A stretch of 64,000 nt of DNA. Origin: Sporichthyaceae bacterium (GTDB lineage: Bacteria > Actinomycetota > Actinomycetes > Sporichthyales > Sporichthyaceae). The notes beneath the pieces were generated by a model, which saw only the letters and a list, made by a program, of their open reading frames with translations, was not told the origin of the DNA and ran no database searches. The DNA is taken from NCBI GenBank assembly GCA_052386455.1, contig JBQTKD010000034.1:892-64891 (forward strand), written 5' to 3'. Made by a program: the position numbers and the translations under genes. Below, piece by piece: positions 1-37,747 of this stretch. Positions within the stretch are counted from its first letter, which is position 1; every line of letters starts with the position of its first letter.

Positions 1-18
1 TCCTCCCCTAGTCCACCC

Positions 19-112
19 GCGTTACGTCCGCTCAAACTGCGTTGCGTCCGCTCAGAAGTGGGCTATAGCGCTCCGATGAGCGGACCCAACGCAAGGCGGG
101 CGGACGCAAGGG
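19..112. repeat. Compound palindromic intergenic element. Four ~16-nt units (GCGTTrCGTCCGCTCA) lie at 20-nt spacing, two direct and two inverted, around a GCTATAGC centre
   Basis: GCGTTACGTCCGCTCA at 19-34 and GCGTTGCGTCCGCTCA at 39-54. The inverted copy TGAGCGGACCCAACGC is at 77-92 and a partial copy GCGGACGCAAG is near 100-110. The centre is GGGCTATAGCGC at 61-71. It lies immediately 3' of the last cassette gene (stop at 115-117). Confidence 0.7.
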
Positions 113-114
113 GC

Positions 115-777
115 CTAGGACAGGCAGGCGCGCAGGGTCTTCGGGCAGTCGAGGGGGCGGGCGGCGGCGATCCGTTTGCCGTTGGCCTCGACGCGGCCGA
201 GGATCGCCTCGATCTGCGCGATCTGCGCGCGCAGCGTGCGGGTGTCGGAGCCGAGGCCGTCGATGCGGCGTAGGGCGTCGGCGAGCAGGCGAGCGGAGGC
301 CCGGGCCTCCTGCTCGGCGCGGCCGAGGTTGCCGGCGATGTCGCCCGTGTCGGCGACCATGGCGACGACGACCGGAGCGAGGTCTTCGGAGAACGCCCGC
401 AGGTCGGCGGCGGTGACCGCGAGCCGGGAGAACGACTCGGCGCTGGTCCGCGTATGCCGCGAGATCTCCTCGGCCGACACCGCGGCGGCTGCGGTGGAGT
501 CCGCCGCGCTCCCCCACGCGGTGCCCAACGGCAGGAGGCCGGCGGCAAACTCCTCGGTGAGGTCGCCGGTGCGACGCAGGAGCGCCTCGACCGCCGGGTC
601 GGCGGCCGCGGAACTCAGCTCGGGTGCGATCGTGTTGTGGAGATCGGAACTGACGGACCGTGAGTCCAACCAGGTGTGCCCCAGCAGAAACGTACCGATC
701 ACGGTGAACACCGCGATCAAGCCCCGGTTCACCGCCGTGGGTCCGGCATGCACCAGCCGGTGGGCGAGATTCAGCAC
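115..777 (-). CDS. Cassette 1 type-C protein: single-pass, alanine-rich helical membrane protein with a C-terminal C-x6-C loop (function unknown)
   Basis: Lower part of ORF 115..1470(-). The GTG at 777-775 overlaps the upstream stop in GTGCTGA, the same junction as paralog 2956..3642. TM segment LIAVFTVIGTFLLG; the protein ends LDCPKTLRACLS. Confidence 0.7.
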   Translation of the reverse strand: MLNLAHRLVHAGPTAVNRGLIAVFTVIGTFLLGHTWLDSRSVSSDLHNTIAPELSSAAADPAVEALLRRTGDLTEEFAAGLLPLGTAWGSAADSTAAAAVSAEEISRHTRTSAESFSRLAVTAADLRAFSEDLAPVVVAMVADTGDIAGNLGRAEQEARASARLLADALRRIDGLGSDTRTLRAQIAQIEAILGRVEANGKRIAAARPLDCPKTLRACLS

Positions 778-1454
778 GACTGCGCGCCCCGGCGAACGGA
801 CACGGCGGGCGAGCGGCACACGTCTTCGAGGTGGTCGTTGACCTTCTCCCCCGTCTTGCCGATGTCGCCGAGGTCCCCGCGCACCGCCCGGAGCACCTCG
901 TTGATCGCCGCAAGCTTGGCGCGGATCCCGTTGAGGCCGGTGCGGTCGGTGCCCTCGATCTCGGCGAGCGCGTTGCCCATCGCCGCGGTGCGGTCGAGGA
1001 TTTGCTCGAGCAGGGCCGCGGCCTCGGTGGCGTTGGTACCGATCCGACCGATGCGCTCGCCCGCCGGCTCCAAGTCCTTGGCGGCACCCGCCAGCCGCGG
1101 CGCGGCACCGGAGAGATCCGCCTCGACGAGCTCGAGCGACACGATCGCCGCCGCGAGGTTGGCCGCGACCTTGTCGGTGTCCCTCGGCAGGATCCGCAGC
1201 GCCGCGTCCACCACGGCAAGGGAGTTGTTGATCCGCTCGAGTTGGCTCGGCATCGTCTGCGTGCGCCCGGACAGGCCACTGACGGCCACGTCGGTCGTCC
1301 GCAGGTTGTCCTCGATGCGGGTCAACGAAGCCCCGATGAGCACGAGAAACACCGTCGCCACCGCGACGACAACGCTCGCCAGCGCCATCCGCGTCCGCGA
1401 CGGCGGCCGCCGGTCCAGCGCGACGTCCGACCAGGTCTCCTCGCCGCCGTTCAC
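771..1454 (-). CDS. Cassette 1 type-B protein: single-pass, alanine-rich helical membrane protein with a C-terminal C-x13-C loop (function unknown)
   Basis: Lower part of ORF 771..2237(-). The GTG at 1454-1452 forms a GTGA overlap with the upstream stop, as in paralog 3636..4325. TM segment ALASVVVAVATVFLVLIG; the protein ends CRSPAVSVRRGAQSC. Confidence 0.72.
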   Translation of the reverse strand: MNGGEETWSDVALDRRPPSRTRMALASVVVAVATVFLVLIGASLTRIEDNLRTTDVAVSGLSGRTQTMPSQLERINNSLAVVDAALRILPRDTDKVAANLAAAIVSLELVEADLSGAAPRLAGAAKDLEPAGERIGRIGTNATEAAALLEQILDRTAAMGNALAEIEGTDRTGLNGIRAKLAAINEVLRAVRGDLGDIGKTGEKVNDHLEDVCRSPAVSVRRGAQSC

Positions 1455-2092
1455 GAGCGGCCTCGCGCACGGGGGCAGGAGCCGGAGCCGTTGAGGCCGC
1501 GGTCGATGCAACCGGTGAGGCGCTCGGTCTGACCCAGCGTCACGAGGATGTCGCGGCCCTCGGCCAAGATCCCCTCGAGGATGCGCGCGGTGGCGGGCAA
1601 CTGCGCGTCGATGAGCGCGACCCCGCGACGGATGCGCGTCAGATCGGCGAGGATCCGTGCGGCGTCGGCGTTCAGTCCGTCGAGCCGCCCGGCGAAGGCG
1701 GTGACGCCGGTGTCGAGCCCGGCGAGCCCGGCCCGGATCTCCGCGGCGCTCCGGTCGATCGACGCCGACGATCCGTCGATGGACGCGGTCCGTTCGCGGA
1801 TCGCGGCCAGCAGTTCGGCGATGCGCGCCGAGCGGGCGTCGATCTTTCCGGTGGGGCCGGACAGCGGAAGCAGCGCGGCGGCGATCGAGGCGGCGAGATC
1901 GTTGGCGCGCTCCAACTGGGCGATCGCGCCGCCCTCGCTCTCGATGCCACGCGATGACGCGGCGATGTTCGAGGTCCGGTCCTGGATCGAGGCGGTCGTG
2001 CGTTCGGCGTGCAGCAGCAACCCGACGACCGCGGACCCGGCCGCCGTCACCGCGACGACCGACAGCCAACCCGTACTCCAACCACGCCTCAT
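1451..2092 (-). CDS. Cassette 1 type-A protein: single-pass, alanine-rich helical membrane protein with a C-terminal C-x10-C loop (function unknown)
   Basis: Lower part of ORF 1451..2632(-). The ATG at 2092-2090 forms an ATGA overlap with the upstream stop. TM segment WLSVVAVTAAGSAVVGLLL; the protein ends CIDRGLNGSGSCP. It aligns without gaps to 4322..4966. Confidence 0.75.
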   Translation of the reverse strand: MRRGWSTGWLSVVAVTAAGSAVVGLLLHAERTTASIQDRTSNIAASSRGIESEGGAIAQLERANDLAASIAAALLPLSGPTGKIDARSARIAELLAAIRERTASIDGSSASIDRSAAEIRAGLAGLDTGVTAFAGRLDGLNADAARILADLTRIRRGVALIDAQLPATARILEGILAEGRDILVTLGQTERLTGCIDRGLNGSGSCPRARGRS

Positions 2093-2703
2093 CGCGTAGG
2101 AACCGTCGTCCGAAACGAAGCGACGACGGCGTCGAACACGGGCGCCAGCACGGAGAGCCGACTGTCCGGGACCGCCTGGAAGACGAGGGTGTACATCGAG
2201 GTGCCGGAGAACGCGAACCAGTGGGTGTGCACGCCACGAACGCCGCCGGCGTCGAACGTGTACAGGTACTGGACCGCGGGCAGCCCGGCCAGCGTCGTCG
2301 GAGTTGCCTCCAGGACCTCCAGCCCCACTTCGGGTGCTCCGAGCACGGCGTCGGTCACCGCTCGAAGGTCGGCGACGTTGGACGCGTCCACCGGCTTGGC
2401 CAGCGTGGTCCGCTTGACGCTCACGGCGTCCTGCCCGCCGACGCGGAACAGCACGCCACCGGGGATCGCCTCCGAACGCCAGCCGGGCGGGTACTCCAGC
2501 GCGAAGCCCGCAGCGGGATCGCGATAGCCCTGATACCCGACGGTCGTCTGGCTGGCCACCGGGGCGGCCACCGAATCGTCCACGCCGCGCGCGACCCACC
2601 AACTGCCGGCGAAGGCCAGCATTGCGGCGCACGTCGCGATCCGCTTCCGCCTACGCCGCCGCCTGCGGGCGTACGTGCCGGCGCCCACGTCCCGCGCGTC
2701 CAC
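2089..2703 (-). CDS. Cassette 1 N-terminally anchored exported alpha/beta protein, tentatively PsbP/Mog1-like (LpqN/DcrB-type fold)
   Basis: ORF 2089..2772(-). The start was trimmed to the GTG at 2703, where third-position GC rises and a GGGAAAG sequence lies upstream; the start remains uncertain. Arg-rich N-terminus followed by hydrophobic segment IATCAAMLAFAGSWWVA. The motif YRDPAAGFALEYPPGW is typical of PsbP-like domains (from memory). About 70% identical by eye to 4966..5568. Confidence 0.65.
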   Translation of the reverse strand: MDARDVGAGTYARRRRRRRKRIATCAAMLAFAGSWWVARGVDDSVAAPVASQTTVGYQGYRDPAAGFALEYPPGWRSEAIPGGVLFRVGGQDAVSVKRTTLAKPVDASNVADLRAVTDAVLGAPEVGLEVLEATPTTLAGLPAVQYLYTFDAGGVRGVHTHWFAFSGTSMYTLVFQAVPDSRLSVLAPVFDAVVASFRTTVPTR

Positions 2704-2955
2704 CCGACTTTCCCAGGTGTCCGCCCGGCGTTCCGAGGTGTCCACTCGGTCTCCCCCGCGTCCCTGCCGCAACGGGAGTTCCGGCGGCTCGACTTCGGGG
2801 GACCGTACAACGGATCAATGGGGCGACACGGGCCAAATGCAGAGACTGCCGACGCCGAATCGAGAACTCGTAGGAGGTTTGTCCAGATTCGTTCCAGAGC
2901 GCGGCAAAGTGCCTTGCTCGTAGCAGATTCCGGTATTCTGACTATCCGTCAGCAT

Positions 2956-3642
2956 CTAGCGGGCGGGTCGCGGGAAGCACGCTCGCGAGTCCGACGGGCA
3001 ATCGAGAATCTTTGCCGCCGCCACGTTTGCGCCGTGCTTCTCGATGCGCCGCAGGACGGCTTCGATCTCCTCGGCGCGGGCCCGCACGGCGGCAGCGTCG
3101 GTCGCGATCCCCTCCGTCGCCGCGACCGCGCGGTCGAGCCCACTCTTCGCCAGGGCGGTCTGCCGGTCCGCGGCGGCCAGGGTGGTGCGGATGTCCCCCA
3201 CGCCCTCGACGATCGCCTTCACCACGGGGCTCAGGTCCCCGAGCAAAGCGCGGATCGCAGACACGGACGCGTCGATGTTCGCCACGTGGATGCGGGTGCT
3301 GTCGGAGTCGTCGCGGATCCCGTTGGTCTCCTCGACCATCGTCGTGGTCGCATCCGCCGCGCGCCCCAGGCCCTCCGCGATGGGCAGCAGGCCGGTGGCG
3401 ATCCGCTCGGTCAACACGCCGGTGCGGTCCAGCAGGGCGAGCGCCTCGAGGTCGCCGTCCACCGCGCTCAACTGGGGCGTGATCGCGCCGCCGATGTCGT
3501 CGTCGATCTGCGTGGCGTCGTAGGCGGTCTTGGTCAGCAGCAGGAACGCGGCCAACGCGAAGGCGCCCACGATGGCGAGGTTGAGCGTGGGTGCGCGCCC
3601 TGCGGTCGACTCCGCCGAGAGCCACGCCCGAAGCCTCAGCAC
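2956..3642 (-). CDS. Cassette 2 type-C protein: single-pass alanine-rich helical membrane protein with a C-terminal C-x6-C loop
   Basis: ORF 2956..3642(-). GTG start in a GTGCTGA overlap with the upstream stop. TM segment LNLAIVGAFALAAFLLL; the protein ends LDCPSDSRACFP. Confidence 0.75.
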   Translation of the reverse strand: MLRLRAWLSAESTAGRAPTLNLAIVGAFALAAFLLLTKTAYDATQIDDDIGGAITPQLSAVDGDLEALALLDRTGVLTERIATGLLPIAEGLGRAADATTTMVEETNGIRDDSDSTRIHVANIDASVSAIRALLGDLSPVVKAIVEGVGDIRTTLAAADRQTALAKSGLDRAVAATEGIATDAAAVRARAEEIEAVLRRIEKHGANVAAAKILDCPSDSRACFPRPAR

Positions 3643-4325
3643 GACTGCGGCCCGCTGCGCAGCCCGACGGCCGGGGAGCGGCAGATGCTCTCCAGATGCC
3701 CGTTGATTCGGCGGTTGGTCGCGAGGATGTCGCCGAGGTCGCCGCGGACCGCGGTCAGTACCGCGTTCACCGCAGCAAGGTTCGCGCGCACGCCGGCGAG
3801 CCCCGTCTTCACCCTGCCGTCGATGGCGGCCAGCGAGTCGTGGATCGATCCGGTGTTGCCGAGGATTCGCATCAGCAGGGCGGCGGTCTCCTTGAGGTTT
3901 GCGCCGATCGGGCCGATCAGCTTCGCCGACGGCTCGAGGTTCTTCGATGCGCTGGCGAGGTTCGGCGCCGTCGCCGCGAGATCGGCCTCGATGAGCTCCA
4001 TCGCCTCGATCATCGCGGTGAGGTTCGAGGCGATCGTGTCGGTGTCCTTCGGCAGCACGCGCAGCGCGGCCTCGATGACCTCGAGGGACCGGTTCACCCG
4101 TTCGACCTGTTGCGGCAGCGGCGCGGTGCTGCCGGAGACGTTGCCGACCGCGGTGTTCGCAGCAGTCAGGTCGTCGTCGATCCGGGACAGCGAATTGCCG
4201 ATGAGGACGAGGAAAAGCGCCGTGACGACGACGATCGCCGCGCCGATCCCGACCCAGGCGGTCAGCCAGCGGCGTAGCGCGGACTCCGGCTCGGCCGCTT
4301 CGGCTTCGGAGTCGGCGAAGGTCAC
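3636..4325 (-). CDS. Cassette 2 type-B protein: single-pass alanine-rich helical membrane protein with a C-terminal C-x13-C loop
   Basis: ORF 3636..4325(-). GTG start in a GTGA overlap with the upstream stop. TM segment WVGIGAAIVVVTALFLVLIG; the protein ends CRSPAVGLRSGPQSC. Confidence 0.78.
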   Translation of the reverse strand: MTFADSEAEAAEPESALRRWLTAWVGIGAAIVVVTALFLVLIGNSLSRIDDDLTAANTAVGNVSGSTAPLPQQVERVNRSLEVIEAALRVLPKDTDTIASNLTAMIEAMELIEADLAATAPNLASASKNLEPSAKLIGPIGANLKETAALLMRILGNTGSIHDSLAAIDGRVKTGLAGVRANLAAVNAVLTAVRGDLGDILATNRRINGHLESICRSPAVGLRSGPQSC

Positions 4326-4966
4326 GACGTTCCCCTAGACGGGCAGGACGCCGAGCCGTTCAGGCCACGGTCGATGCAGCCGGCCAGCCGCTCGGTCGTG
4401 CCCAGTGCGGTGAGGATGTTCCGCGCCTCGGCGAGAATTCCGTCGAGGATCCGCGCCGTGGTCGGCAGGTCCGCGTTGATGAGCCGAACACCCCGCTGAA
4501 TGCGCGTCAGATCCCCCAGGATGAGCGCCGCGTCCGCGTTCAGGCCGCCGACGCGCGTCTGGATCGTCTTGGCGTCCAGCCCGATGCCCTCCAGACCGGT
4601 ACGGATCGTCGCGGCACTCGCATCGATGGCGGCGGCCGAATCGTCGATGGACGACGTACTCGCCCGGATCGCGGCGAGCAGATCGACGACCCGCGCCGTG
4701 CGGCCGTCGATGCGATCCACGGGACCGGCGAGGGGCTTGAGCGCTGCGGCGATCTTCGCTGCGAGCTCGTTGGTCCGCTCCAGCTCTGCCAGGGAGTCCG
4801 TGTACCCGTTGATGCCGCGCGAGGACGACGCGATGTTGGAGGTCTTGTCGTGAATCGACGCCGCGTTGCGCTCGGTCCGCACCAACAGGACCGTGGCGAC
4901 CACGGCGATCACCGCGACGACGACGACCGAGACCCGGCCCGGGATGCGGTCCGGCAGGCGGGCCAT
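4322..4966 (-). CDS. Cassette 2 type-A protein: single-pass alanine-rich helical membrane protein with a C-terminal C-x10-C loop
   Basis: Lower part of ORF 4322..5353(-). The ATG at 4966-4964 overlaps the upstream stop in TGATG. TM segment VSVVVVAVIAVVATVLLV; the protein ends CIDRGLNGSASCP. Confidence 0.78.
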   Translation of the reverse strand: MARLPDRIPGRVSVVVVAVIAVVATVLLVRTERNAASIHDKTSNIASSSRGINGYTDSLAELERTNELAAKIAAALKPLAGPVDRIDGRTARVVDLLAAIRASTSSIDDSAAAIDASAATIRTGLEGIGLDAKTIQTRVGGLNADAALILGDLTRIQRGVRLINADLPTTARILDGILAEARNILTALGTTERLAGCIDRGLNGSASCPSRGTS

Positions 4967-5568
4967 CAGGACTCCACTACGCGGAAGGACTCCGCCACGC
5001 GATCGAAGGCCGGGGCCAGCGCCGCGAATCCGGTGTCCGGCAGCGTCTGGAAGACCAGCGTGTACATCGTGCGCCCGTCGAAGGCGAACCAGTGGGTGTG
5101 CGCCCCGCGCAGCCCGGAGCTGTCGAACGTGTAGAGGTACTGCACGCCCGGCAGGCCGCCCAGGGTGGTCGGGGACGCCTGCAACACCTTCAAGCCGGCT
5201 TCGGGTGCGCCCAGCACTGCGTCGGTCACCGCGCGCAGGTCCGCCAGGTTCGTGGAGTCCACCGGCTCGGCGAGCTCGGTCCGCTTCACGCTGACGGCGT
5301 CCTGCCCGCCGACGTGGAGCAGGACTCCTCCGTCCACCGACTCGGGCCGCCACCCGGCCGGATGCGAAAACTCGAACCGGCCCGCGGGGTCCCGGTACGG
5401 CACGACCTGCTCGGTGCTCGCCGCGGCGAGCACCGGAGCGTGGGACGAGCCGCCGGCGACGCCGAGCGCCGCTCCGCCCACCAGCAGCCCAAGGGTCAGG
5501 CCGCCGGCCAGCGCAAGCCGCCGCAGGCGACGCCGCCCCAACCTGGGAGTGGGCTGCGGATCAGCCAT
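4966..5568 (-). CDS. Cassette 2 N-terminally anchored exported alpha/beta protein, tentatively PsbP/Mog1-like
   Basis: ORF 4966..5568(-). ATG start preceded by GGAAGGA. Signal/anchor segment RRLRRLALAGGLTLGLLVGGAALGVAGG. Motif YRDPAGRFEFSHPAGW. Confidence 0.78.
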   Translation of the reverse strand: MADPQPTPRLGRRRLRRLALAGGLTLGLLVGGAALGVAGGSSHAPVLAAASTEQVVPYRDPAGRFEFSHPAGWRPESVDGGVLLHVGGQDAVSVKRTELAEPVDSTNLADLRAVTDAVLGAPEAGLKVLQASPTTLGGLPGVQYLYTFDSSGLRGAHTHWFAFDGRTMYTLVFQTLPDTGFAALAPAFDRVAESFRVVES

Positions 5569-5587
5569 GGCGATCCTTCCGTTCAGC

Positions 5588-5624
5588 GGTAGCGATCGCT
5601 ACCCTGGTGGTAGTGATCGCTACC
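5588..5624. promoter_or_regulatory. Twin 16-bp palindromic operators (TetR-type) in the divergent tetR/cassette-2 promoter region
   Basis: GGTAGCGATCGCTACC at 5588-5603 is a perfect palindrome. GGTAGTGATCGCTACC at 5609-5624 has one mismatch. The two are 21 bp apart. They lie between the cassette start (5568, minus strand) and the TetR start (5643, plus strand). Confidence 0.7.
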
Positions 5625-5642
5625 CTAGCGGCGAGGTCGACC

Positions 5643-6260
5643 ATGATCAATCCGGCACCACGGGAACGACTGCTGGCCTCGGCCGGCGAGTTGTTCGGCC
5701 GCGAGGGCGTCGCCGCAGTCGGGGTCAGCCGGGTAATCGAACACGCCGAGGTCGGCCAGATGAGCCTGTGGCGCACGTTCGGCTCCAAGCGCGGTCTCGT
5801 CGAGGCGTGGCTGCGCGACGTGGACGCCGCGAACCTCGCCGAAATACGCGAGGCGGTCGCGGGCGACGCGCCCCCACGGGAGCGTCTCAACGCTCTCATC
5901 GACGCCTACGCCCGCCGAGCTGCCGCGCCGACGTTCACCGGATGTCCGCTCGTCCGCGCCGCCGCCGAACCCGGCGCCACCGGCCCGATCGCCGGCGAAC
6001 TCGCCCGAGCCCACAAGGAGGCGATGATCGGGATCATCGCCGAGCTCGCCGAGGCGGCGGGCGTGCACAACCCGCGCAGCCTGGCCGCGCAACTGTTCTA
6101 CGTCGTCGAGGGCGCGAGCGTCGCCGTCGGCCTGGGCGTGGACGTCTCCGTCGAGGAGGCGAGGACCGCGGCCCTCGTGCTGTTCGACACCGCCACGGGG
6201 CGCGGCTTCGCACCCGCACCGCCGCGGCCCGGCTGGAGCCCGCTTCCCACCGCCCGCTAA
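5643..6260 (+). CDS. TetR/AcrR-family transcriptional regulator
   Basis: ORF 5607..6260(+), trimmed to the ATG at 5643 so that the operators stay outside the CDS. The N-terminal HTH reads RERLLASAGELFGREGVAAVGVSRVIEHAEVGQMSLWRTFGSKRGLV. Confidence 0.85.
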   Translation: MINPAPRERLLASAGELFGREGVAAVGVSRVIEHAEVGQMSLWRTFGSKRGLVEAWLRDVDAANLAEIREAVAGDAPPRERLNALIDAYARRAAAPTFTGCPLVRAAAEPGATGPIAGELARAHKEAMIGIIAELAEAAGVHNPRSLAAQLFYVVEGASVAVGLGVDVSVEEARTAALVLFDTATGRGFAPAPPRPGWSPLPTAR

Positions 6261-6280
6261 GGCGTCGCCAGCGGGCACGA

Positions 6281-6355
6281 ACACTCCCGATAGTGCAGTT
6301 CAGGCTCGCTCCAGAGCCCTTTTGCGTGCCCCGACTGCACTATCGGCGAGAGTGT
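6281..6355. terminator. Long hairpin between convergent tetR and secA, possibly a bidirectional terminator or REP-like element
   Basis: Arms CGATAGTGCAGT (6288-6299) and ACTGCACTATCG (6334-6345) are perfect. Outer arms are ACACTC (6281-6286) and GAGTGT (6350-6355). The loop holds a nested GGCTC..GAGCC stem followed by CTTTTG. Confidence 0.45.
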
Positions 6356-6357
6356 GG

Positions 6358-9153
<2,796 letters not shown>

Positions 9154-9167
9154 CGCGCGTACTCCTA

Positions 9168-9189
9168 CCTGTTTGCGAGCTTGCGAGCG
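9168..9189. repeat. 22-nt exact repeat CCTGTTTGCGAGCTTGCGAGCG, copy 1, in the secA 5' leader
   Basis: Identical to 36592-36613. It contains the tandem TTGCGAGC TTGCGAGC. On the secA sense strand it abuts the Shine-Dalgarno sequence. Confidence 0.8.
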
Positions 9190-9309
9190 AACATCAGCAC
9201 TGTGAGACGGTCGGCATTGCAGAGAGAGCCAACCGCAGCATCCTAGGGTTCCAACCCGCCAAGACGACTTGACGCACCGGACTGTGATTCGAAGGGGTTG
9301 GATGGGCGG

Positions 9310-9894
9310 ATGCCGCCCGATCTGCCCGACGAGCCCATCGAGATCGCTGCGGGCAGGATCCAGCTCCGTCCCTGGGAGCACCGGCTGGCGCCCGAGCTGC
9401 TCGCCGCCTTCGCCGATCCGGAGTACCGGCGGTGGGGCCTACCCGCGCCCGAGCCGACCCTCGAAGGGGTCCACCAGTGGATCGACGGGCGCGACCGTGC
9501 GTGGCGGGCCGGGGAGCGCCTGTCGTTCGCCGTCCAGGACATCACCACCGCAGCCCTGCTCGGGGAGGTCGGGCTCAAGGGATTCGACGTCTGGCCGTCG
9601 GCGGCCGAAGTCGGGTATTGGGTCGCGCCGGCGGCCCGTCGCAGGGGGGTGGCCACCGCCGCGGTGCGCACGCTGAGCCGCTGGGCGTTCGGCGCGCTCG
9701 ACCTGCACCGCCTGCGGCTCGACCACGCCGTGGGAAACACCGCCTCCTGCGTCGTGGCGGCCCGCTGCGGGTTCGCCGTCGAGGGCATCGCTCGCTCGGC
9801 CCAGCCCCTCGGGGACGGCACCTGGTCCGACGTCGAGACGCACGCCCGCCTGGCAGCCGACCCGCCGTGCTCGATCGAGGGGGCTGCCCCGTGA
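9310..9894 (+). CDS. GNAT-family N-acetyltransferase (RimJ/RimL-like)
   Basis: ORF 9298..9894(+). The ATG at 9310 is preferred over the TTG at 9298. Acetyl-CoA site-like motif [19 protein letters not shown]. The layout is typical of the Acetyltransf_3 family. Confidence 0.85.
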
Positions 9895-33803: not shown

Positions 33804-35513
33804 CTATGCGTCGTAGGCCGGTGCAGCAGCCGAGTGAAGCGGCATCCTGGCGAGTGAAGCGGGGGGCTCGGGGGTGGGGGCCGCGTTGAGCTCGCGGTGC
33901 ACGGCGGGCACGACCTTGCGCAGGTACCGGCCGAGCTTGACGAACGAAGTGCCGGAGGTGCGAAAGGCGTACCGGATCGGGACTTCGGTGTAGACGAAGC
34001 CCTTGGCCAGCAGGTCGAGGGTGAGCACCTGGGCGTAGTTGTAGTCGTGGACGATCTCGGCCTCGGCGGCGGCGCGGGCGGAGAAGGCGCGGTACCCGCT
34101 CTGACCGTCCGTCAGGTCTCGGCGGCGGGTCAGCCACCGCACCCAGCGGGTGAGCACGAGGTTGCCCAGGCGCCGGTGGGGGCGCATGTGCTCGATCTGG
34201 CCGGCGAAGCGGGACCCGACCACGTAGTCCGCGGTCCCGGCGAGGACCGGTGCGACTACGACCCCGAGTTCGGTGGGGTCGTACTCGAGGTCCGCGTCGA
34301 GGTAGACGACGGCAGCCGGTTGCAGTGCGGACGCCGCCGCCAGGGCGGTGCGCACCGCGGCGCCGAGGCCGAGGTTGCGCGGGTGCGGGATGACCGTCGC
34401 GCCGGCCGCGGTGGCGCGGGCGGCGCTGTCGTCGGCGGAGCCGTCGTCCACGACCAGGCAGTGGACGGGGCGGCCGGCGACGGTGGTCGGGAGCCGGCGA
34501 ACGACCTCGGCGATCGTCTCGGCCTCGTCGTGCACGGGGATCACCGCAACGATCGGCGCGTCGAGCGCCACCGGGAGCGCCGGCGGCCGCGGCGGCAAAA
34601 GCCGTGGCAGGCGATAGCGCACGCGGGTGCGCTCGGGAACGGACCACCTGCGCCCGACGTAGGCCGGCGCCGGCAGCCACAGCGCCGGCGTGCCGAGCGC
34701 GAGGGAGTACAGGGTCTTCACGGCGTGCGTTGCCAGGGCGATCGCGAGACCCGTCGAGGCGGGGACGCCGAGCGCGGCCAGCGCCGCGGTTGCCGCGGCC
34801 TCGTAGGAGCCGATGCCACCGGGCGTGACCGCGAGGGTCTGGGCCGCGACGGCGACGGCCGTCACGGCAATGGCCTCGTGGTAGCCGAGCTCGATCCCGG
34901 CGGCGTTTGCGACCTGCCACACCAGCGCGGCCTCGAGCGCCCACGCGGCGAACACGGTGCCGCCGACCACGCCGAGCGGTACCCGCACGCCGGACCCGGG
35001 GCGCGCGGCCGCCCACCGGCGCAGGACGAGCAGGCCGCCCACGCCCGCGGCACCGGCCGCGAGGACGACGATCCACGCCCACCCGCCGATGAGGTCCACG
35101 GCGAGGCCGGGCACGGCGATCAAGGCGAGCAGCGCGACAGACGCGACGTCCGCCAGGCGCAGGCTCACGGTCGTCGCGGTGACGGTGCCCGCGGGCAGGT
35201 CGGTGCGGCGCAGGACCGAGGTGACGCGCAGCGCTTCCCCGAGCCGAAGCGGGAGGACGTGGTTGCCGAGCACGGAGACGTGCAGCGCGGCCCAGGCCTG
35301 GCCGAAGCTCAGGCCCGGCAGCACGCGGGTCCAGGCCCAGGCCCGCAGTCCAAACGCGGCGCCGTAGGCGATCAGCGCCAGCGCAACGCCGAGCGGTTCG
35401 GACACCAGGGCGTCCCAGGCGTCGGCGAGCACGGCGGCCTCGGCCACGTGCGCCAGGTACGCGACCGAGAGTCCAAGCGCCAGCAGGCCCAGGCCCGTTC
35501 GCGCGATGCGCAT
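33804..35513 (-). CDS. Fusion of a flippase-like (LPG-synthase TM/UPF0104) membrane domain with a family-2 glycosyltransferase
   Basis: ORF 33804..35579(-), trimmed to the ATG at 35513. The N-terminal ~320 aa are polytopic and contain PGGIGSYEAA. The C-terminal GT2 domain contains VIPVHDEAETI, VVDDGSAD and YLDADLEY. Confidence 0.8.
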   Translation of the reverse strand: MRIARTGLGLLALGLSVAYLAHVAEAAVLADAWDALVSEPLGVALALIAYGAAFGLRAWAWTRVLPGLSFGQAWAALHVSVLGNHVLPLRLGEALRVTSVLRRTDLPAGTVTATTVSLRLADVASVALLALIAVPGLAVDLIGGWAWIVVLAAGAAGVGGLLVLRRWAAARPGSGVRVPLGVVGGTVFAAWALEAALVWQVANAAGIELGYHEAIAVTAVAVAAQTLAVTPGGIGSYEAAATAALAALGVPASTGLAIALATHAVKTLYSLALGTPALWLPAPAYVGRRWSVPERTRVRYRLPRLLPPRPPALPVALDAPIVAVIPVHDEAETIAEVVRRLPTTVAGRPVHCLVVDDGSADDSAARATAAGATVIPHPRNLGLGAAVRTALAAASALQPAAVVYLDADLEYDPTELGVVVAPVLAGTADYVVGSRFAGQIEHMRPHRRLGNLVLTRWVRWLTRRRDLTDGQSGYRAFSARAAAEAEIVHDYNYAQVLTLDLLAKGFVYTEVPIRYAFRTSGTSFVKLGRYLRKVVPAVHRELNAAPTPEPPASLARMPLHSAAAPAYDA

Positions 35514-35628
35514 CCCCACGACGGCAGCTTTCCATGCAGGAGGGGCGACGTTGCCCAAGGCCAGGCTAACCTTGGGCACTTCCGAGGGCCGTCCGTGCCA
35601 AGCCCCCTCGGCCGCGCGGAGGCAACGG

Positions 35629-36537
35629 ATGACGGTGGTGGTGACCGGCTCGGCCGGGTTCCTCGGCCGTGCCGTGATCGCGCGCCTGGTGGCGCAGGGG
35701 CGCCCCGTACTCGGCGTCGACCGTCTACCCGCCCCGGTCCAGGGCCCCGGTCACCGCGAACTGTGCGTCGACCTGCTCGACGGCGACGCGCGAGCCACGG
35801 CGGCGCTGCGCAGCGCCCGTGGCGTGATCCACCTGGCGGGGTGCCCCGGCGTACGGGACCGTCGCCCGGACATCGCCTGGCTGCGGCACCGGGACAACGT
35901 GCTCGCCTCCGCCGCGGTGCTCGGGGCCGCGGGCCTCGAGGTGCCGGTAGTGGTCGCTACCTCGTCGTCGGTGTACGGCGGGACAGTCGAGGGCCGCGCA
36001 TGCAGGGAGGACGACCCGCTGCGCCCACGCGGTGGCTACGCCCGCAGCAAGGCCGCCGTCGAGTCGCTGTGCGAGGCCCACAACGCGGCCGGTGGCACCG
36101 TCGTCCTGGCTCGGCCGTTCACCGTGGCCGGCGAGGGCCAGCGCCCGGACATGGCGCTCGCGCTGTGGATCGAGGCCGCGCTCGCCGACCGCCCCCTGCG
36201 TGTACTGGGCAGCCTGGACCGCACCCGGGACATCACCGACGTCCGCCAGGTGGCCAGGGCCCTCGTCGACCTGCTCGACGCCGGAGTGCCGGGCCCGGTG
36301 AACGTCGGCACCGGCGTCGGCCACACGCTCTCCGCCATGATCGCCGCGGTCGGAGCGGAACTCGGCCGAGCCGTCTCGGTCGAGATCGAGCCGGCATCGC
36401 ACGACGAGGTCCGCGACACCCTCGCCGACACCACCCGCCTCCGCGAACTCGTCGGCTGGGCCCCGACCACCGACCTCCGCGCCCTCGTCGCCCGCCAGAT
36501 CACGACCGCCCCTACCCGGCACTACGCAATCGCCTGA
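35629..36537 (+). CDS. NAD-dependent epimerase/dehydratase (SDR family)
   Basis: Tail of ORF 35506..36537(+). The ATG at 35629 has GGAGG 7 nt upstream. Rossmann motif VVVTGSAGFLG. Catalytic YARSK. Confidence 0.85.
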   Translation: MTVVVTGSAGFLGRAVIARLVAQGRPVLGVDRLPAPVQGPGHRELCVDLLDGDARATAALRSARGVIHLAGCPGVRDRRPDIAWLRHRDNVLASAAVLGAAGLEVPVVVATSSSVYGGTVEGRACREDDPLRPRGGYARSKAAVESLCEAHNAAGGTVVLARPFTVAGEGQRPDMALALWIEAALADRPLRVLGSLDRTRDITDVRQVARALVDLLDAGVPGPVNVGTGVGHTLSAMIAAVGAELGRAVSVEIEPASHDEVRDTLADTTRLRELVGWAPTTDLRALVARQITTAPTRHYAIA

Positions 36538-36742: not shown

Positions 36743-37747
36743 TCAGCCGGCGACGGGGGCGGTGTCTCCCATGCTGAGACGCTCGGCGTCGCCGGTGTAG
36801 CCGGAGCGGGCGGCGCGGCGGCCCGGCCCGAAGACCCAGGCCAGGAACAGCACCTCGGCCGTGACGCCGATGCCGATGCGCACCGGGGTCGCCCACCCCC
36901 GGCCGGTCACGAAGCCCTCGATCGTGCCCGCGACGGCCAAAACGACGACGAGCCCGAGCGCGACGGCCATGGCCGCCCGGGCGGTCTCGGCGAGCGCCTC
37001 GCCGCGGGTCCGCGGCCCCGGATCGATCCAGGCCCACCCGACGCGCAGCCCGACCCCGCAGGCGACGAACACCGCCGTCAGTTCGAGCAGACCGTGCGGC
37101 AGGAGGAGACCGAGGAAGGTGTCCAGCCGCCCCGCTTCCGACATCAGGCCGAGCGCGACGCCGAGGTTGGCCGCGTTCATCCAGACCACGTAGAACACGG
37201 GCACGATCAGCACCCCGAGCGTGATGCCGGCGGCCGCGACCCACGCGTTGTTGGTCCACACCTGGGCGGCGAAGGAGCCGCGGCCGTACTCGTAGTAGTA
37301 CGACTCGAACGAGCCCCCGGGGCGGGTGAGCTCGGCGTACTGCTCGGGGCTGACCGACGCCGCCTGCACCCCGGGATTGCTGTCCACCCAGATAGCGATC
37401 GCTACCGTAATGGCGAAGAACGCCGCCGCGACCCCCGCCCACCAGGGCCACGCCAGGTACACCGCGGCGGGGAACCGGCGCCGGAAGAAGTCCGCGACGT
37501 CCCGCCGTGCCGGAGTACTCGCCCCCGCCACCGCCGAGCGCGCCCGGGCCACCAGGGCGGACAGCCGGCCGAGCAGCGCCGGGTCCGGGGCAGCCGAGGA
37601 CAGGATCGACAGGTGCGTCGCGGTCTTCTGGTACAGCTCGACGAGTTCCTCCGCCTCGTCGCCGGACAGCCCGCCCGCGCGGTTCAGCAGGACGTCGAGG
37701 CGTTCCCATTCGCGGTTGTGCACCGCGACGAACGCGTCGATGTCCAC
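36743..37747 (-). CDS. Stage II sporulation protein M-like (SpoIIM family) polytopic membrane protein
   Basis: ORF 36743..37747(-). N-terminal helical domain MDIDAFVAVHNREWERLDVLL. TM helices follow, with the motif LLPHGLLELTAVFVACG. Confidence 0.8.
   Translation of the reverse strand: MDIDAFVAVHNREWERLDVLLNRAGGLSGDEAEELVELYQKTATHLSILSSAAPDPALLGRLSALVARARSAVAGASTPARRDVADFFRRRFPAAVYLAWPWWAGVAAAFFAITVAIAIWVDSNPGVQAASVSPEQYAELTRPGGSFESYYYEYGRGSFAAQVWTNNAWVAAAGITLGVLIVPVFYVVWMNAANLGVALGLMSEAGRLDTFLGLLLPHGLLELTAVFVACGVGLRVGWAWIDPGPRTRGEALAETARAAMAVALGLVVVLAVAGTIEGFVTGRGWATPVRIGIGVTAEVLFLAWVFGPGRRAARSGYTGDAERLSMGDTAPVAG

What the first reader, a model, noticed from the sequence alone, without database searches (positions are those of the whole stretch)
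115..5568. Tandemly duplicated, translationally coupled four-gene cassette: a PsbP-like exported protein plus three paralogous single-pass coiled-coil proteins, each ending in a Cys-loop
Two colinear copies (115-2703 and 2956-5568, minus strand) carry the same four genes in the same order.

- Gene 1 encodes an Arg-rich, N-terminally anchored ~200-aa alpha/beta protein (YRDP..GF.F..P.GW).
- Genes 2-4 encode three ~215-225-aa proteins, types A, B and C. Each has one N-terminal TM helix and about 190 aa of Ala/Leu/Ile/Asp/Arg-rich helical sequence with no enzymatic motif.
- Each type has its own C-terminal Cys pair: A has C-x10-C (CIDRGLNGS.SC), B has C-x13-C (CRSPAV...SC) and C has C-x6-C (LDCP....AC).
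- The junctions are conserved at nucleotide level between the copies: GTGA for A to B and GTGCTGA for B to C, with ATGA or TGATG for gene 1 to A. This implies stoichiometric coupled translation.
- Paralog pairs align without gaps. By eye they are about 70% (gene 1), 60% (A), 50% (B) and 30-35% (C) identical, so the duplication is old and both copies are maintained.

My inference is that the helical parts and the Cys pairs lie outside the membrane, allowing disulfides. That would suit an A:B:C hetero-oligomeric coiled-coil stalk or bundle in the cell envelope, with the PsbP-like protein as partner. I do not recognise a characterised family; the cassette is not Mce, MCP, ESX or ClyA-like in architecture.
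Basis: partly seen in the sequence, partly recalled or inferred. Interest (0 to 1): 0.88.

Follow-up and report, generated by a model that had tools for sequence, protein, structure and literature searches.

The report
Duplicated envelope coiled-coil stalk gene cassette
An uncultured actinobacterium carries two copies of a conserved but undescribed four-gene unit: a PsbP-like exported protein plus three related membrane-anchored proteins, each with a roughly 25-nm coiled-coil rod ending in a cysteine loop, which most likely build a stalk reaching from the membrane into the cell wall.

Summary
This covers gene order, the overlapping stop/start junctions, the copy-to-copy identities (P 67%, A 61%, B 54%, C 34%), the Cys spacings (x10, x13, x6) and the PsbP hit.

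What the tools added:
- A, B and C each have one N-terminal TM helix followed by about 24 unbroken heptads. Ile dominates position d, and the a/d registers line up column by column between the three.
- The rod length is tightly conserved: 167, 171 and 177 residues.
- Cys counts are almost always even, and DUF1059 is fused N-terminal to A's TM helix in some relatives. Both argue for an N-in, rod-outside topology.
- The order P-(small genes)-A-B-C recurs in every related locus that is long enough: about 14 loci, including cultured Nocardioides sp. NPDC051685. The tandem duplication is older than the split of three Sporichthyaceae-like genomes.
- A divergent TetR gene with two 16-bp palindromic operators sits upstream.
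- An exhaustive search found a broad family of such proteins, mostly from metagenomes. It matches no Pfam, NCBIfam, PADLOC, PHROG or PDB family above threshold, and I found no literature on it.

The A:B:C hetero-oligomer remains an inference. Two sequence tests for it were negative or inconclusive, and multimer modelling was not possible. Function is unknown; an envelope stalk or ruler is my best guess.

The parts
115..777 (-). C1: downstream-cassette type C protein (220 aa). N-terminal TM helix, heptad rod, C-terminal LDCPKTLRAC (C-x6-C).
   Evidence: GC3 0.91. 34% identical to C2. It was returned as its own cluster representative, P0041.
771..1454 (-). B1: downstream-cassette type B protein (227 aa). 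Ends VCRSPAVSVRRGAQSC (C-x13-C). Its stop overlaps the C1 start (GTGCTGA).
   Evidence: (= P0028).
1451..2092 (-). A1: downstream-cassette type A protein (213 aa). Ends CIDRGLNGSGSC (C-x10-C). GTGA overlap with B1.
2089..2703 (-). P1: downstream-cassette PsbP-like protein. Arg-rich N-terminus followed by a hydrophobic anchor. ATGA overlap with A1. The start codon is uncertain: GTG 2703, TTG 2772 or ATG 2622.
   Evidence: Pfam PsbP 23.5 bits against a cut-off of 23.5..
2704..2955 (-). Non-coding spacer between the cassettes. Lower GC, with blocks conserved in L002 and L003 (CCGGACAAnCC; CATTnnTCCGTTGTA). Possibly a separate promoter or leader for the downstream cassette.
   Evidence: No TetR operator here. 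No Rfam match.
2956..3642 (-). C2: upstream-cassette type C protein (228 aa). Ends LDCPSDSRAC (C-x6-C).
3636..4325 (-). B2: upstream-cassette type B protein (229 aa). Ends ICRSPAVGLRSGPQSC (C-x13-C). GTGCTGA overlap with C2.
   Evidence: The AF2 model is all-helical but of low confidence.
4322..4966 (-). A2: upstream-cassette type A protein (214 aa). Ends CIDRGLNGSASC (C-x10-C). GTGA overlap with B2.
   Evidence: AF2 predicts a TM helix at 10-47 and one continuous helix at 57-202, with 10-residue-block mean pLDDT of 72-91 over residues 101-200.
4966..5568 (-). P2: upstream-cassette PsbP-like protein (200 aa). Arg-rich N-terminus plus a hydrophobic anchor and no Cys. TGATG overlap with A2. GGAAGGA Shine-Dalgarno sequence upstream.
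   Evidence: Pfam PsbP 23.8 bits against 23.5, covering profile positions 3-155 of 155..
5588..5624 (.). Two 16-bp palindromes, GGTAGCGATCGCTACC (5588-5603) and GGTAGTGATCGCTACC (5609-5624), 21 bp apart centre to centre, in the divergent P2/TetR intergenic gap. Probable TetR operators.
   Evidence: 4 matches in the window against 0.32 expected. The same palindrome sits at the equivalent position in L002.
5643..6260 (+). Divergent TetR-family regulator (205 aa from the ATG at 5643).
   Evidence: PF00440 39.3 bits against a cut-off of 24, plus a TetR_C_13 match at 24.9 bits, below its 27-bit cut-off. 38% identical (E = 3e-27) to the TetR next to the Nocardioides cassette. TetR genes also flank the cassettes in L002, L003, L024 and one JGI contig.

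Best explanation
Each cassette encodes four bitopic, N-in/C-out envelope proteins.

P is a PsbP-fold globular domain held close to the outer face of the cytoplasmic membrane by an Arg-rich signal-anchor. A, B and C are paralogues that each consist of one TM helix and about 24 uninterrupted heptads. That makes a rod of about 25 nm, ending in a short disulfide-closed loop.

Because all three are anchored by their N-termini in the same membrane, have the same heptad register and nearly the same length, and are made from translationally coupled genes, they most likely zip together in parallel. The product would be one heteromeric coiled-coil stalk (A:B:C, or a multiple of it). It would project through the peptidoglycan layer of this single-membrane bacterium and present the Cys-loops at its tip, with P docked at its base.

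Expression is probably controlled by the divergent TetR repressor through two palindromic operators, so the stalk would be made in response to a small-molecule cue. I infer a structural role in the envelope: a spacer or ruler, or a scaffold or surface-display stalk. I do not infer an enzymatic or transport role.

Shown: gene structure, PsbP match, TM helix plus heptads, conserved length, conserved Cys pairs, conserved gene order, the age of the duplication, and the presence of the operator palindromes.

Inferred: topology, disulfides, hetero-oligomer, contact with P, TetR control, and function.
For: Architecture:
- 122 of 127 superfamily representatives have exactly one N-terminal TM helix.
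- Periodicity power at 3.5 residues is 127, 162 and 126 for A, B and C over about 160 residues. Power at 3.6 and 3.67 is below 10.
- Position d is mostly Ile and position a is Leu, Ala, Val or Thr. From general coiled-coil knowledge, beta-branched residues at d disfavour dimers and suit trimers or tetramers.
- The a/d registers of A, B and C coincide column by column in the joint alignment.
- AF2 gives A one continuous helix at 57-202, with 10-residue-block mean pLDDT of 72-91 over residues 101-200.

Length constraint:
- The distance from the TM end to the first Cys has a median of 167 (IQR 167-171) for A, 171 (171-173) for B and 177 (174-177) for C, across representatives non-redundant at 50% identity. 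That is about 247-262 Angstrom.

Topology and disulfides:
- Total Cys count is 2 in 83 proteins, 0 in 29 and 4 in 7, and odd in only 8 of 127.
- K+R averages 2.27 on the N-side of the TM helix against 1.57 on the C-side.
- DUF1059, which has no signal peptide, is fused N-terminal to A's TM helix in P0047, P0053 and P0057, and lies in one open frame with A in L007.
- The Cys pairs are invariant within each family.

Complex:
- P-(0-4 small genes)-A-B-C is found in that order in every related locus long enough to show it. These are the window, L001-L003, L006, L007, L009, L010, L012, L016, L020, L024 and two JGI contigs.
- The stop/start overlaps are conserved.
- More distant loci still carry three-paralogue arrays.

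Maintenance:
- Positional orthologues of A, upstream-copy B and C are more alike across genomes than the two copies are within a genome. For A the figures are 69-72% (upstream copies) and 59-68% (downstream copies) across genomes against 52-61% between paralogues.

Regulation.
Against: - No direct evidence exists for any protein-protein contact.
- Summed core side-chain volumes of A+B+C per layer are no more uniform than in layer-shuffled controls (87% of shuffles were equal or lower).
- g-e' charge pairs are few and do not favour hetero- over homo-trimers.
- The B monomer model is of low confidence (pLDDT 47) and shows helix breaks.
- All three rods contain conserved prolines, so they may be hinged or segmented rather than straight.
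- hhalign aligns A to B about 55 residues out of register. Part of the A/B similarity is therefore generic or internally repetitive.
- Some relatives have no Cys in the C slot, and some triplets have no P gene. Neither feature is therefore obligatory.
- The positive-inside bias is modest.
- TetR genes are very common in Actinomycetota, so adjacency alone is weak evidence.
Confidence: 0.45

Rival explanations
1. There are three separate homo-oligomeric stalks. A, B and C each form their own parallel homotrimer or homotetramer, as Lpp or trimeric adhesin stalks do. They are merely co-expressed, giving three kinds of envelope fibre with different tip loops.
For: - Nothing in the core or charge analyses favours the heteromer.
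- B's a-layers are almost all Leu and could pack well alone.
- The profile's best PDB matches are designed single-chain coiled coils, then a chemoreceptor and homo-oligomeric stalks such as the trimeric adhesin fragments and viral fusion cores.
Against: - The strict A-B-C order, the overlapping stop/start codons and the three-paralogue arrays recur across very divergent loci. A fixed-stoichiometry assembly explains this more simply.
- A's a-layers are repeatedly Ala, Ser or Thr, which would leave a homotrimer core under-packed.
- The three rod lengths are matched and conserved.
Confidence: 0.22
2. It is a cell-wall-crossing rail or conduit for hydrophobic substrates, working like the helical needle of actinobacterial Mce transporters but without the MCE domain. 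The PsbP-like protein would be the ligand-binding partner and the TetR would sense the substrate.
For: - B2 and C1 give weak hits to the helical C-terminal part of TIGR00996 (E = 0.002 and 0.009).
- Mce1C appears at E = 0.15 in the PDB profile search.
- JGI names two B-type proteins 'MlaD'.
- TetR regulators and catabolic genes (aldehyde dehydrogenase, acyl-CoA ligase, P450, enoyl-CoA hydratase) lie nearby in several loci.
- From general knowledge, some Mog1/PsbP-fold proteins bind hydrophobic ligands or helices; the Eag chaperones are an example (PMC12881460, listed, abstract only).
Against: - No MCE domain and no YrbE/MlaE permease or ATPase gene is present in any locus.
- The Mce scores are far below threshold (17.5 bits against 140.5) and no better than tropomyosin in the same list.
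- Only positions a and d are hydrophobic. That points to a solid core rather than a lumen.
Confidence: 0.1
3. The helical domains are cytoplasmic (N-out/C-in) and act at the inner face of the membrane, like other TM-plus-coiled-coil stress proteins of the DUF948/YoxC type. The His/Cys C-termini would form a metal site rather than disulfides.
For: - DUF948 is the most frequent, though sub-threshold, Pfam hit: 34 of 77 relatives, best E = 3.6e-6, and 20.4 bits for B2.
- A conserved His often lies 4-7 residues before the first Cys in types B and D and in many A relatives.
- DUF1059 and a NicO-type metal transporter occur in some loci.
Against: - The DUF1059 domain, which lacks a signal peptide, is fused on the N-terminal side of A's TM helix. 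That places the rod on the opposite side of the membrane.
- More K+R lies on the N-side of the TM helix.
- There is a strong even-Cys bias.
- The co-encoded PsbP-like protein itself has an export or anchor sequence.
Confidence: 0.08

Closest known systems
PsbP / Mog1p / DcrB superfamily (Pfam PF01789, PF08786)
   Same: Gene 1 matches the PsbP profile end to end at the gathering score. The P genes of L009, L010 and L024 are flagged PsbP independently. Like PsbP, CyanoP and DcrB, it is predicted to sit on the non-cytoplasmic face of a membrane.
   Different: The score is borderline. No PDB relative was found by sequence, and the fold was not verified here. There is no photosystem context. It is anchored by an uncleaved-looking Arg-rich signal-anchor rather than a lipobox.
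Actinobacterial Mce proteins (TIGR00996; helical needle seen in the Mce1 structures 8FED/8FEE/8FEF)
   Same: Both have an N-terminal TM helix followed by a long extracytoplasmic helical segment. Both come as several paralogues encoded in tandem. Regulators are often of the TetR type (general knowledge). There are weak hits to the helical part.
   Different: There is no MCE beta-barrel domain and no permease or ATPase gene. There are three paralogues rather than six. Scores are far below threshold. The a/d-only hydrophobic pattern suits a solid core rather than a tunnel.
DUF948 / YoxC (PF06103, COG4768)
   Same: Both have an N-terminal TM helix followed by a coiled-coil segment. It is the commonest sub-threshold hit across the superfamily. 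One relative is named 'YoxC' by JGI.
   Different: DUF948 is an 89-position profile, whereas these proteins are 210-230 aa with about 24 heptads and a Cys-loop. All scores are below the 37.2-bit cut-off. DUF948 itself has no known function.
Parallel coiled-coil envelope stalks: Braun's lipoprotein Lpp, trimeric autotransporter adhesin stalks (SadA 2WPR, EibD 2XZR) and the T7SSb subunit EsaA
   Same: These are long parallel coiled coils that span an envelope layer and act as spacers or display stalks (general knowledge). The adhesin stalk fragments score E = 1.7e-6 to 5e-3 against the A/B/C profile. The core is rich in Ile, Thr and Asn.
   Different: Those stalks are homo-oligomers and are anchored differently (lipid, outer-membrane barrel or polytopic membrane domain). 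Here three paralogues are each anchored by an N-terminal TM helix in a single-membrane bacterium. The similarity is compositional and does not show homology.
Heterotrimeric coiled coils locked by disulfides (laminin alpha/beta/gamma long arm, fibrinogen)
   Same: Three paralogous chains of matched length form, or are predicted to form, one parallel rod with Cys at its end. Laminin_II and Laminin_I are recurrent weak hits.
   Different: Those are eukaryotic secreted proteins and there is no evidence of homology. Whether the Cys here bond within or between chains is unknown.
FtsQ-FtsL-FtsB divisome subcomplex
   Same: It is a set of bitopic N-in/C-out proteins, one with an alpha/beta ectodomain and the others with extracytoplasmic coiled coils, which assemble into one membrane-anchored complex (general knowledge).
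   Different: The FtsL/FtsB coils are only a few heptads long. There is no sequence similarity, and the cassette is not in a division gene cluster.

Membership tests
PsbP (PF01789) - gene 1 | Profile match at or above Pfam's gathering score, covering the domain | tested here: met
   P2 scores 23.8 bits and P1 23.5 bits against a cut-off of 23.5, covering profile positions 3-155 and 2-154 of 155. This is borderline. Precomputed PsbP hits on the P genes of L009, L010 and L024 support it.
PsbP (PF01789) - gene 1 | Mog1p/PsbP alpha-beta-alpha sandwich fold | not tested
Mce family (TIGR00996 / MCE domain) | MCE beta-barrel domain after the N-terminal TM helix | tested here: not met
   No MlaD/MCE-domain hit in Pfam, even at E <= 1. 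TIGR00996 reaches only 17.5 and 15.3 bits against 140.5, and only over its helical tail.
Mce family (TIGR00996 / MCE domain) | Operon with YrbE/MlaE permeases (plus an ATPase) and six Mce paralogues | tested here: not met
   None was found among the called genes of any locus or in window 1-9400. There are three paralogues, not six.
DUF948 / YoxC (PF06103) | Profile match at or above the gathering score (37.2 bits) | tested here: not met
   B2 scores 20.4 bits and B1 17.7 bits. 34 of 77 relatives hit at E < 0.01 but with a best E of only 3.6e-6, and the window proteins B2 and B1 are clearly below the 37.2-bit cut-off.
Methyl-accepting chemotaxis proteins (PF00015) | MCP signalling domain, with HAMP or a ligand-binding domain and two TM helices | tested here: not met
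   No hit for the window proteins. 6 of 77 relatives give weak hits. There is a single TM helix. The PDB MCP match (E = 4e-8) is one of many generic coiled-coil matches.
Phage spanins (Rz-like i-spanin) | Profile match plus a phage lysis-cassette context with an o-spanin lipoprotein | tested here: not met
   phrog_89 reaches E = 0.088 for B2 only. tblastn against 50,697 phage records found no match. The flanking genes are chromosomal: SecA, TetR and, in related loci, HAD.
Known anti-phage defence systems (PADLOC) | Significant match to a defence-system component | tested here: not met
   Only weak matches to the coiled-coil parts of ZorA, JetC, DruC and LmuB, with E between 6e-5 and 5e-2.
TetR family - divergent regulator | TetR_N helix-turn-helix domain above threshold, with a palindromic operator in the divergent intergenic region | tested here: met
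   PF00440 scores 39.3 bits against 24. Two 16-bp palindromes lie at 5588-5624. Binding was not tested.
Canonical parallel coiled coil (structural class) | Continuous heptad (3.5-residue) hydrophobic periodicity with a/d core positions | tested here: met
   Oligomer state and chain orientation could not be tested with these tools.

The most novel reading that the evidence does not exclude
The P-A-B-C cassette encodes a previously unrecognised, widespread envelope structure of non-mycolate Actinomycetota. It would be a membrane-anchored heterotrimeric (or hetero-hexameric) coiled-coil stalk of fixed length (~25 nm) that spans the peptidoglycan. It would have a disulfide-locked tip and a PsbP-fold base subunit. 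It would act as a wall-thickness ruler or a trans-wall signalling or display device, and would be induced through a TetR sensor. It is homologous to no known stalk, adhesin or transporter family.
Probability: 0.3. Interest if true: 0.8.

Novelty: new variant of a known kind. Interest (0 to 1): 0.62.

Why it matters
How single-membrane Gram-positive bacteria, and Actinomycetota in particular, measure, organise or signal across their thick cell wall is poorly understood. The few known wall-spanning protein rods are parts of secretion or uptake machines.

This cassette has three features that make it a concrete, testable candidate for a dedicated trans-wall stalk:
- three matched-length paralogues of about 24 heptads with conserved tip disulfide loops;
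- a PsbP-fold partner;
- a dedicated repressor.

It is a compact unit for experiments. Each cassette has four small genes, and a cultured Nocardioides strain carries a single copy.

It also defines a sizeable uncurated protein superfamily that is currently unnamed or mis-annotated as 'MlaD', 'YoxC' or 'methyl-accepting chemotaxis protein'.

If the heterotrimer is real, it would be a rare natural bacterial example of a long ABC-type heterospecific coiled coil, of interest for coiled-coil design.

Tried and rejected
1. Known-family assignment of A, B and C. Pfam, NCBIfam, PADLOC and PHROGs gave only sub-threshold generic coiled-coil hits. A PDB profile search returned designed coiled coils, MCPs, adhesin stalks, viral fusion cores and tropomyosin, with Mce1C at E = 0.15. 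Foldseek of the A model against the PDB returned nothing, as expected for a single long helix.

2. Pseudo-multimer modelling. The B monomer model was of low confidence.

3. Heteromer signature in the core. Per-layer summed side-chain volumes were compared with layer shuffles and showed no complementarity.

4. Heteromer signature in g-e' charges. There were too few charged pairs. The A-to-B-to-C cyclic order scored slightly better than A-to-C-to-B (+1.6 against -1.4), but no better than homotrimers.

5. Mobile-element origin. tblastn of A against the plasmid and phage collections found no match.

6. RNA elements in the intergenic regions. Rfam gave no credible match.

7. Literature. Searches on PsbP + actinobacteria + coiled-coil, DUF948, heterotrimeric coiled-coil + cell wall, PsbP-like/Mog1/DcrB/LpqN and DUF1059 found no description of this cassette.

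8. The exact sequence of A2 was not found by the look-up of encoding contigs, although the identical protein is in the protein collection as an NCBI MAG Sporichthyaceae entry.

9. Artefact or non-coding explanation. This was rejected on GC3 and cross-genome conservation.

Full report
**Source and setting**

The window is about 70% GC. Proteins identical to A2, B2 and C2 are deposited as hypothetical proteins of a 'MAG: Sporichthyaceae bacterium' on a 107,792-bp contig. All cassette genes are on the minus strand. Upstream lie a divergent TetR gene (5643-6260, plus strand) and then secA (stop at 6358, minus strand).

**1.

Reading the sequence gives two colinear four-gene cassettes.
- Upstream cassette: P2 4966-5568, A2 4322-4966, B2 3636-4325, C2 2956-3642.
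- Downstream cassette: P1 2089-2703 (start uncertain), A1 1451-2092, B1 771-1454, C1 115-777.

- P to A: TGATG and ATGA.
- A to B: GTGA in both cassettes.
- B to C: GTGCTGA in both cassettes.

Copy-to-copy identity is 67% (P), 61% (A), 54% (B) and 34% (C). Each pair has at most one gap, and z-scores against shuffles are 33-90. DNA identity is 68-76%. The Cys spacings are x10, x13 and x6.

GC3 of 0.87-0.93 in the called frames and cross-genome conservation show that these frames are translated. The long overlapping ORFs typical of high-GC DNA are not.

**2. What the proteins are**

*Gene 1.* It matches Pfam PsbP over the whole profile at the gathering score (23.8 and 23.5 bits against 23.5), with a weaker DcrB hit. 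The equivalent genes in three other loci carry precomputed PsbP hits. The match is real but borderline. No PDB relative is detectable by sequence, and I could not model the fold. The N-terminus is Arg-rich and followed by about 20 hydrophobic residues. It has no lipobox and no obvious cleavage site, so I read it as a signal-anchor.

*A, B and C.* They match no curated family. Pfam, NCBIfam, PADLOC and PHROGs return only sub-threshold hits to generic coiled-coil models: DUF948, DUF2730, Laminin_II, NPV_P10, the ZorA tail, tape-measure proteins and the helical tail of TIGR00996.

*Are they paralogues?*
- A and C are clearly homologous and colinear from the TM helix onward (hhalign probability 97.7%, E = 1.4e-12).
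- A-B (93%, but offset by about 55 residues) and B-C (72%) are weaker.
- Pairwise alignments are 23-31% identical, mostly over 110-220 aligned residues, with z = 3-12.
- MAFFT aligns all three end to end, with a shared (E/D)R(T/V)(N/G)...L.P(L/I) motif and the last Cys in one column.

**3. They are canonical, unusually long and regular coiled coils**

Family-averaged hydrophobicity shows a sharp peak at exactly 3.5 residues. Power is 127, 162 and 126 for A, B and C, against less than 10 at 3.6 or 3.67. The peak stays coherent over the whole stretch of about 160 residues after the TM helix.

Sorting residues by position modulo 7 gives clean a/d stripes. Position d is mostly Ile; position a is Leu, Ala, Val or Thr. 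From general coiled-coil knowledge, beta-branched residues at d disfavour dimers and suit trimers or tetramers.

In the joint alignment the a/d columns of A, B and C coincide. B differs by indels of 4+3, 3 and 7 residues. The prolines fall at non-core positions.

AF2 with a 15-sequence alignment models A as a TM helix plus one continuous helix at 57-202, with 10-residue-block mean pLDDT of 72-91 over residues 101-200 and pTM 0.29. B is all-helical but of low confidence. This is what one expects of subunits that fold only on assembly.

From the TM end to the first Cys there are 167, 171 and 177 residues, or 24-25 heptads. That is about 25 nm at 1.48 Angstrom per residue.

**4. A large uncurated superfamily with a conserved length and a conserved tip**

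Word-indexed searches found only 14, 17 and 8 close relatives among 5.8 billion clusters. An exhaustive HMMER search with the joint A/B/C profile found 1565 representatives at E <= 1e-3 and 389 at E <= 1e-10.

The list is contaminated by giant heptad-repeat proteins, which reflect generic similarity. Among the 150 best-scoring representatives that were listed, 127 are 350 aa or shorter. Of these:
- 122 have exactly one N-terminal TM helix.
- 89 have exactly two Cys in the last 40 residues.
- Total Cys count is 2 in 83, 0 in 29 and 4 in 7, and odd in only 8.

Recognisable C-terminal types:
- A: ..CID.GLNGG..C
- B: NGHL..(I/V)C.S..VNL.HG.Q.C
- C: C-x6-C, or a Cys-free HTENI....IL ending
- D: IHGHANSIDCS...C

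Rod length is tightly conserved among representatives non-redundant at 50% identity: 167 (IQR 167-171) for A, 171 (171-173) for B and 177 (174-177) for C.

Pfam scanning of 77 representatives gave only sub-threshold coiled-coil families, plus DUF1059 fused in three. Source names are 'hypothetical', 'MlaD', 'YoxC' or 'methyl-accepting chemotaxis protein'.

**5. Gene-order conservation**

I built HMMs for P, A, B and C and scanned all fetched loci. The order P-A-B-C appears in every locus long enough to show it.
- Double cassettes next to secA and TetR: L001, L002 (= L004), L003 (= L005, a 5.2-Mb chromosome) and one JGI contig.
- Single cassettes: L006 (another Sporichthyaceae MAG), L007 (cultured Nocardioides sp. 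NPDC051685, next to rpsB/tsf), L009, L010, L012, L016, L020, L024 and a second JGI contig.

An extended variant inserts two small TM proteins and a DUF1059 protein between P and A. It adds three more small TM-plus-short-helix proteins after C.

More distant loci (L013, L014) keep a three-paralogue array (A-B-D) without P. The constant unit is therefore a triplet of paralogues, and P is a frequent but not universal partner.

**6. Age of the duplication**

For A, upstream-copy B and C, same-position orthologues across the window, L002 and L003 are more similar than the two copies are within a genome. For A the figures are 69-72% (upstream copies) and 59-68% (downstream copies) across genomes, against 52-61% between paralogues. 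The A alignment splits into the same two types. For P and downstream-copy B the ranges overlap. L006 has a single cassette. The duplication therefore predates the divergence of these genomes and both copies have been retained.

**7. Topology**

Three independent hints place the rods outside the membrane:
- The even-Cys pattern. This is typical of exported, disulfide-bonded actinobacterial proteins (general knowledge).
- More K+R on the N-side of the TM helix: 2.27 against 1.57.
- DUF1059, a small Cys/His domain without a signal peptide, is fused to the N-terminal side of A's TM helix in P0047, P0053 and P0057, and lies in one open frame with A in L007.

None of these is proof.

**8. Regulation**

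The 74-bp gap between the P2 start (5568) and the TetR ATG (5643) holds two 16-bp palindromes, GGTAGCGATCGCTACC and GGTAGTGATCGCTACC, 21 bp apart. The window has 4 matches within 3 mismatches, against 0.32 expected. The same palindrome sits at the same place in L002.

The TetR is 38% identical (E = 3e-27) to the one beside the Nocardioides cassette. TetR genes also flank the cassettes in L024 and a JGI contig.

The 250-bp spacer before the downstream cassette has no operator. It does have blocks conserved in L002 and L003, which suggests separate control.

**9. Mechanism**

My best reading is as follows. The four proteins are N-in/C-out bitopic envelope proteins. A, B and C zip in parallel into one heteromeric stalk of about 25 nm that projects through the wall and ends in disulfide-closed loops. 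P sits at the base. The unit is switched on through the TetR. Its role is structural: a spacer or ruler, a scaffold, or a display stalk.

The heteromer is inferred from several facts. N-terminal anchoring forces the chains to be parallel. Their registers and lengths match. The triplet order is strictly conserved. The stop/start overlaps are conserved.

My two sequence tests for heterospecificity failed to support it. Core-volume complementarity was absent, and g-e' charge pairing was uninformative. Multimer modelling was not available. I therefore put 0.45 on this model.

Rivals:
- Three separate homo-oligomeric stalks (0.22).
- An Mce-needle-like rail for hydrophobic substrates (0.10). It rests on weak Mce hits and catabolic or TetR neighbours. 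Against it, there is no MCE domain, permease or lumen-type heptad pattern.
- A cytoplasmic, DUF948-like membrane-stress or metal-binding role (0.08). The topology hints count against it.

**10. Comparison with what is known, and novelty**

Gene 1 can be filed, cautiously, in the PsbP/Mog1p superfamily. A, B and C fail the membership tests for Mce, DUF948, MCP, spanin and defence-system families. By analogy they work like parallel envelope stalks (Lpp, trimeric adhesin stalks, EsaA). As a matched-length three-paralogue rod with terminal Cys, they resemble laminin or fibrinogen. Neither resemblance indicates homology. No paper in the searchable library describes the cassette.

I rate it a new variant of a known kind, namely extracytoplasmic coiled-coil stalks. 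The protein family itself is undescribed. Interest is moderate to high (0.62). The anatomy is unusually clean and testable, and a cultured host exists. Function and assembly, however, remain inferred.

Noticed in passing
window 5588-5603 and 5609-5624: Two tandem 16-bp palindromes (GGTAGCGATCGCTACC and GGTAGTGATCGCTACC), 21 bp centre to centre, lie in the divergent P2/TetR intergenic gap. The same palindrome is at the equivalent site in L002 (6549-6564). They are probably TetR operators.
   Followed up: partly
window 35946-35961 and 37391-37406: Near-copies of the same palindrome (2 mismatches and 1 mismatch) lie inside coding ORFs: an epimerase-like ORF at 35506-36537 and a membrane-protein ORF at 36743-37747 on the minus strand. 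The window has 4 matches against 0.32 expected by chance. Whether these are extra TetR sites or chance matches is unknown.
   Followed up: no
window 2704-2955: The spacer between the cassettes is non-coding and lower in GC. It shares conserved blocks with L002 and L003 (CCGGACAAnCC; CATTnnTCCGTTGTA), has no TetR operator and has no Rfam match. It may be an independent promoter or leader for the downstream cassette.
   Followed up: partly
L010 3188-7801; L012 2323-6895; L016; L020; JGI 3300041965 contig: There is an extended cassette variant. Its order is PsbP-like, two small TM proteins, DUF1059, A, B, C (Cys-free), then three more small proteins with a TM helix and a short helical segment. 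DUF1059 is fused to A in some proteins (P0047, P0053, P0057) and lies in one open frame with A in Nocardioides L007. A NicO-type metal transporter lies upstream in L010.
   Followed up: partly
L013 6624-8693; L014 6620-8687: More distant loci carry a three-paralogue array A-B-D with no PsbP-like gene. The third protein ends IHGHANSIDCS...C. In L014 the array follows an FtsH gene, and in L013 it follows purine-biosynthesis genes.
   Followed up: partly
proteins P0040, P0046, P0069, P0084 and P0070, P0083, P0089: The A/B/C profile also hits giant proteins of 2-5 thousand residues built of heptad repeats, such as TNTKLDTVNTNIG repeated many times. It also hits C-terminally anchored surface proteins with (V/I)ATIQTDIGT-type heptads. 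This is probably generic similarity among stalks whose cores are rich in Ile, Thr and Asn.
   Followed up: partly
A family vs B family (alignments A1 and A4): hhalign aligns A 79-158 with B 132-215, about 55 residues out of register. This hints at internal repetition within the rods.
   Followed up: no
L001 2985-4579 and 5888-6992: In this ENA contig, secA and the upstream cassette's P and A genes are broken into fragments, while the downstream cassette is intact. Assembly frameshifts seem more likely than pseudogenes.
   Followed up: no
L003 10676-11197 (minus strand); JGI contig; L001 8509-9063: Some double-cassette genomes have an extra minus-strand gene of 173-184 aa, with no Pfam match, between the two cassettes. 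It is absent from the window and from L002.
   Followed up: no
window 6358-9381 (minus strand): The secA ORF is open up to 9381. The conserved SecA N-terminus (..[11 protein letters not shown]..) begins about 90 codons downstream, so the real start is probably near 9110.
   Followed up: no
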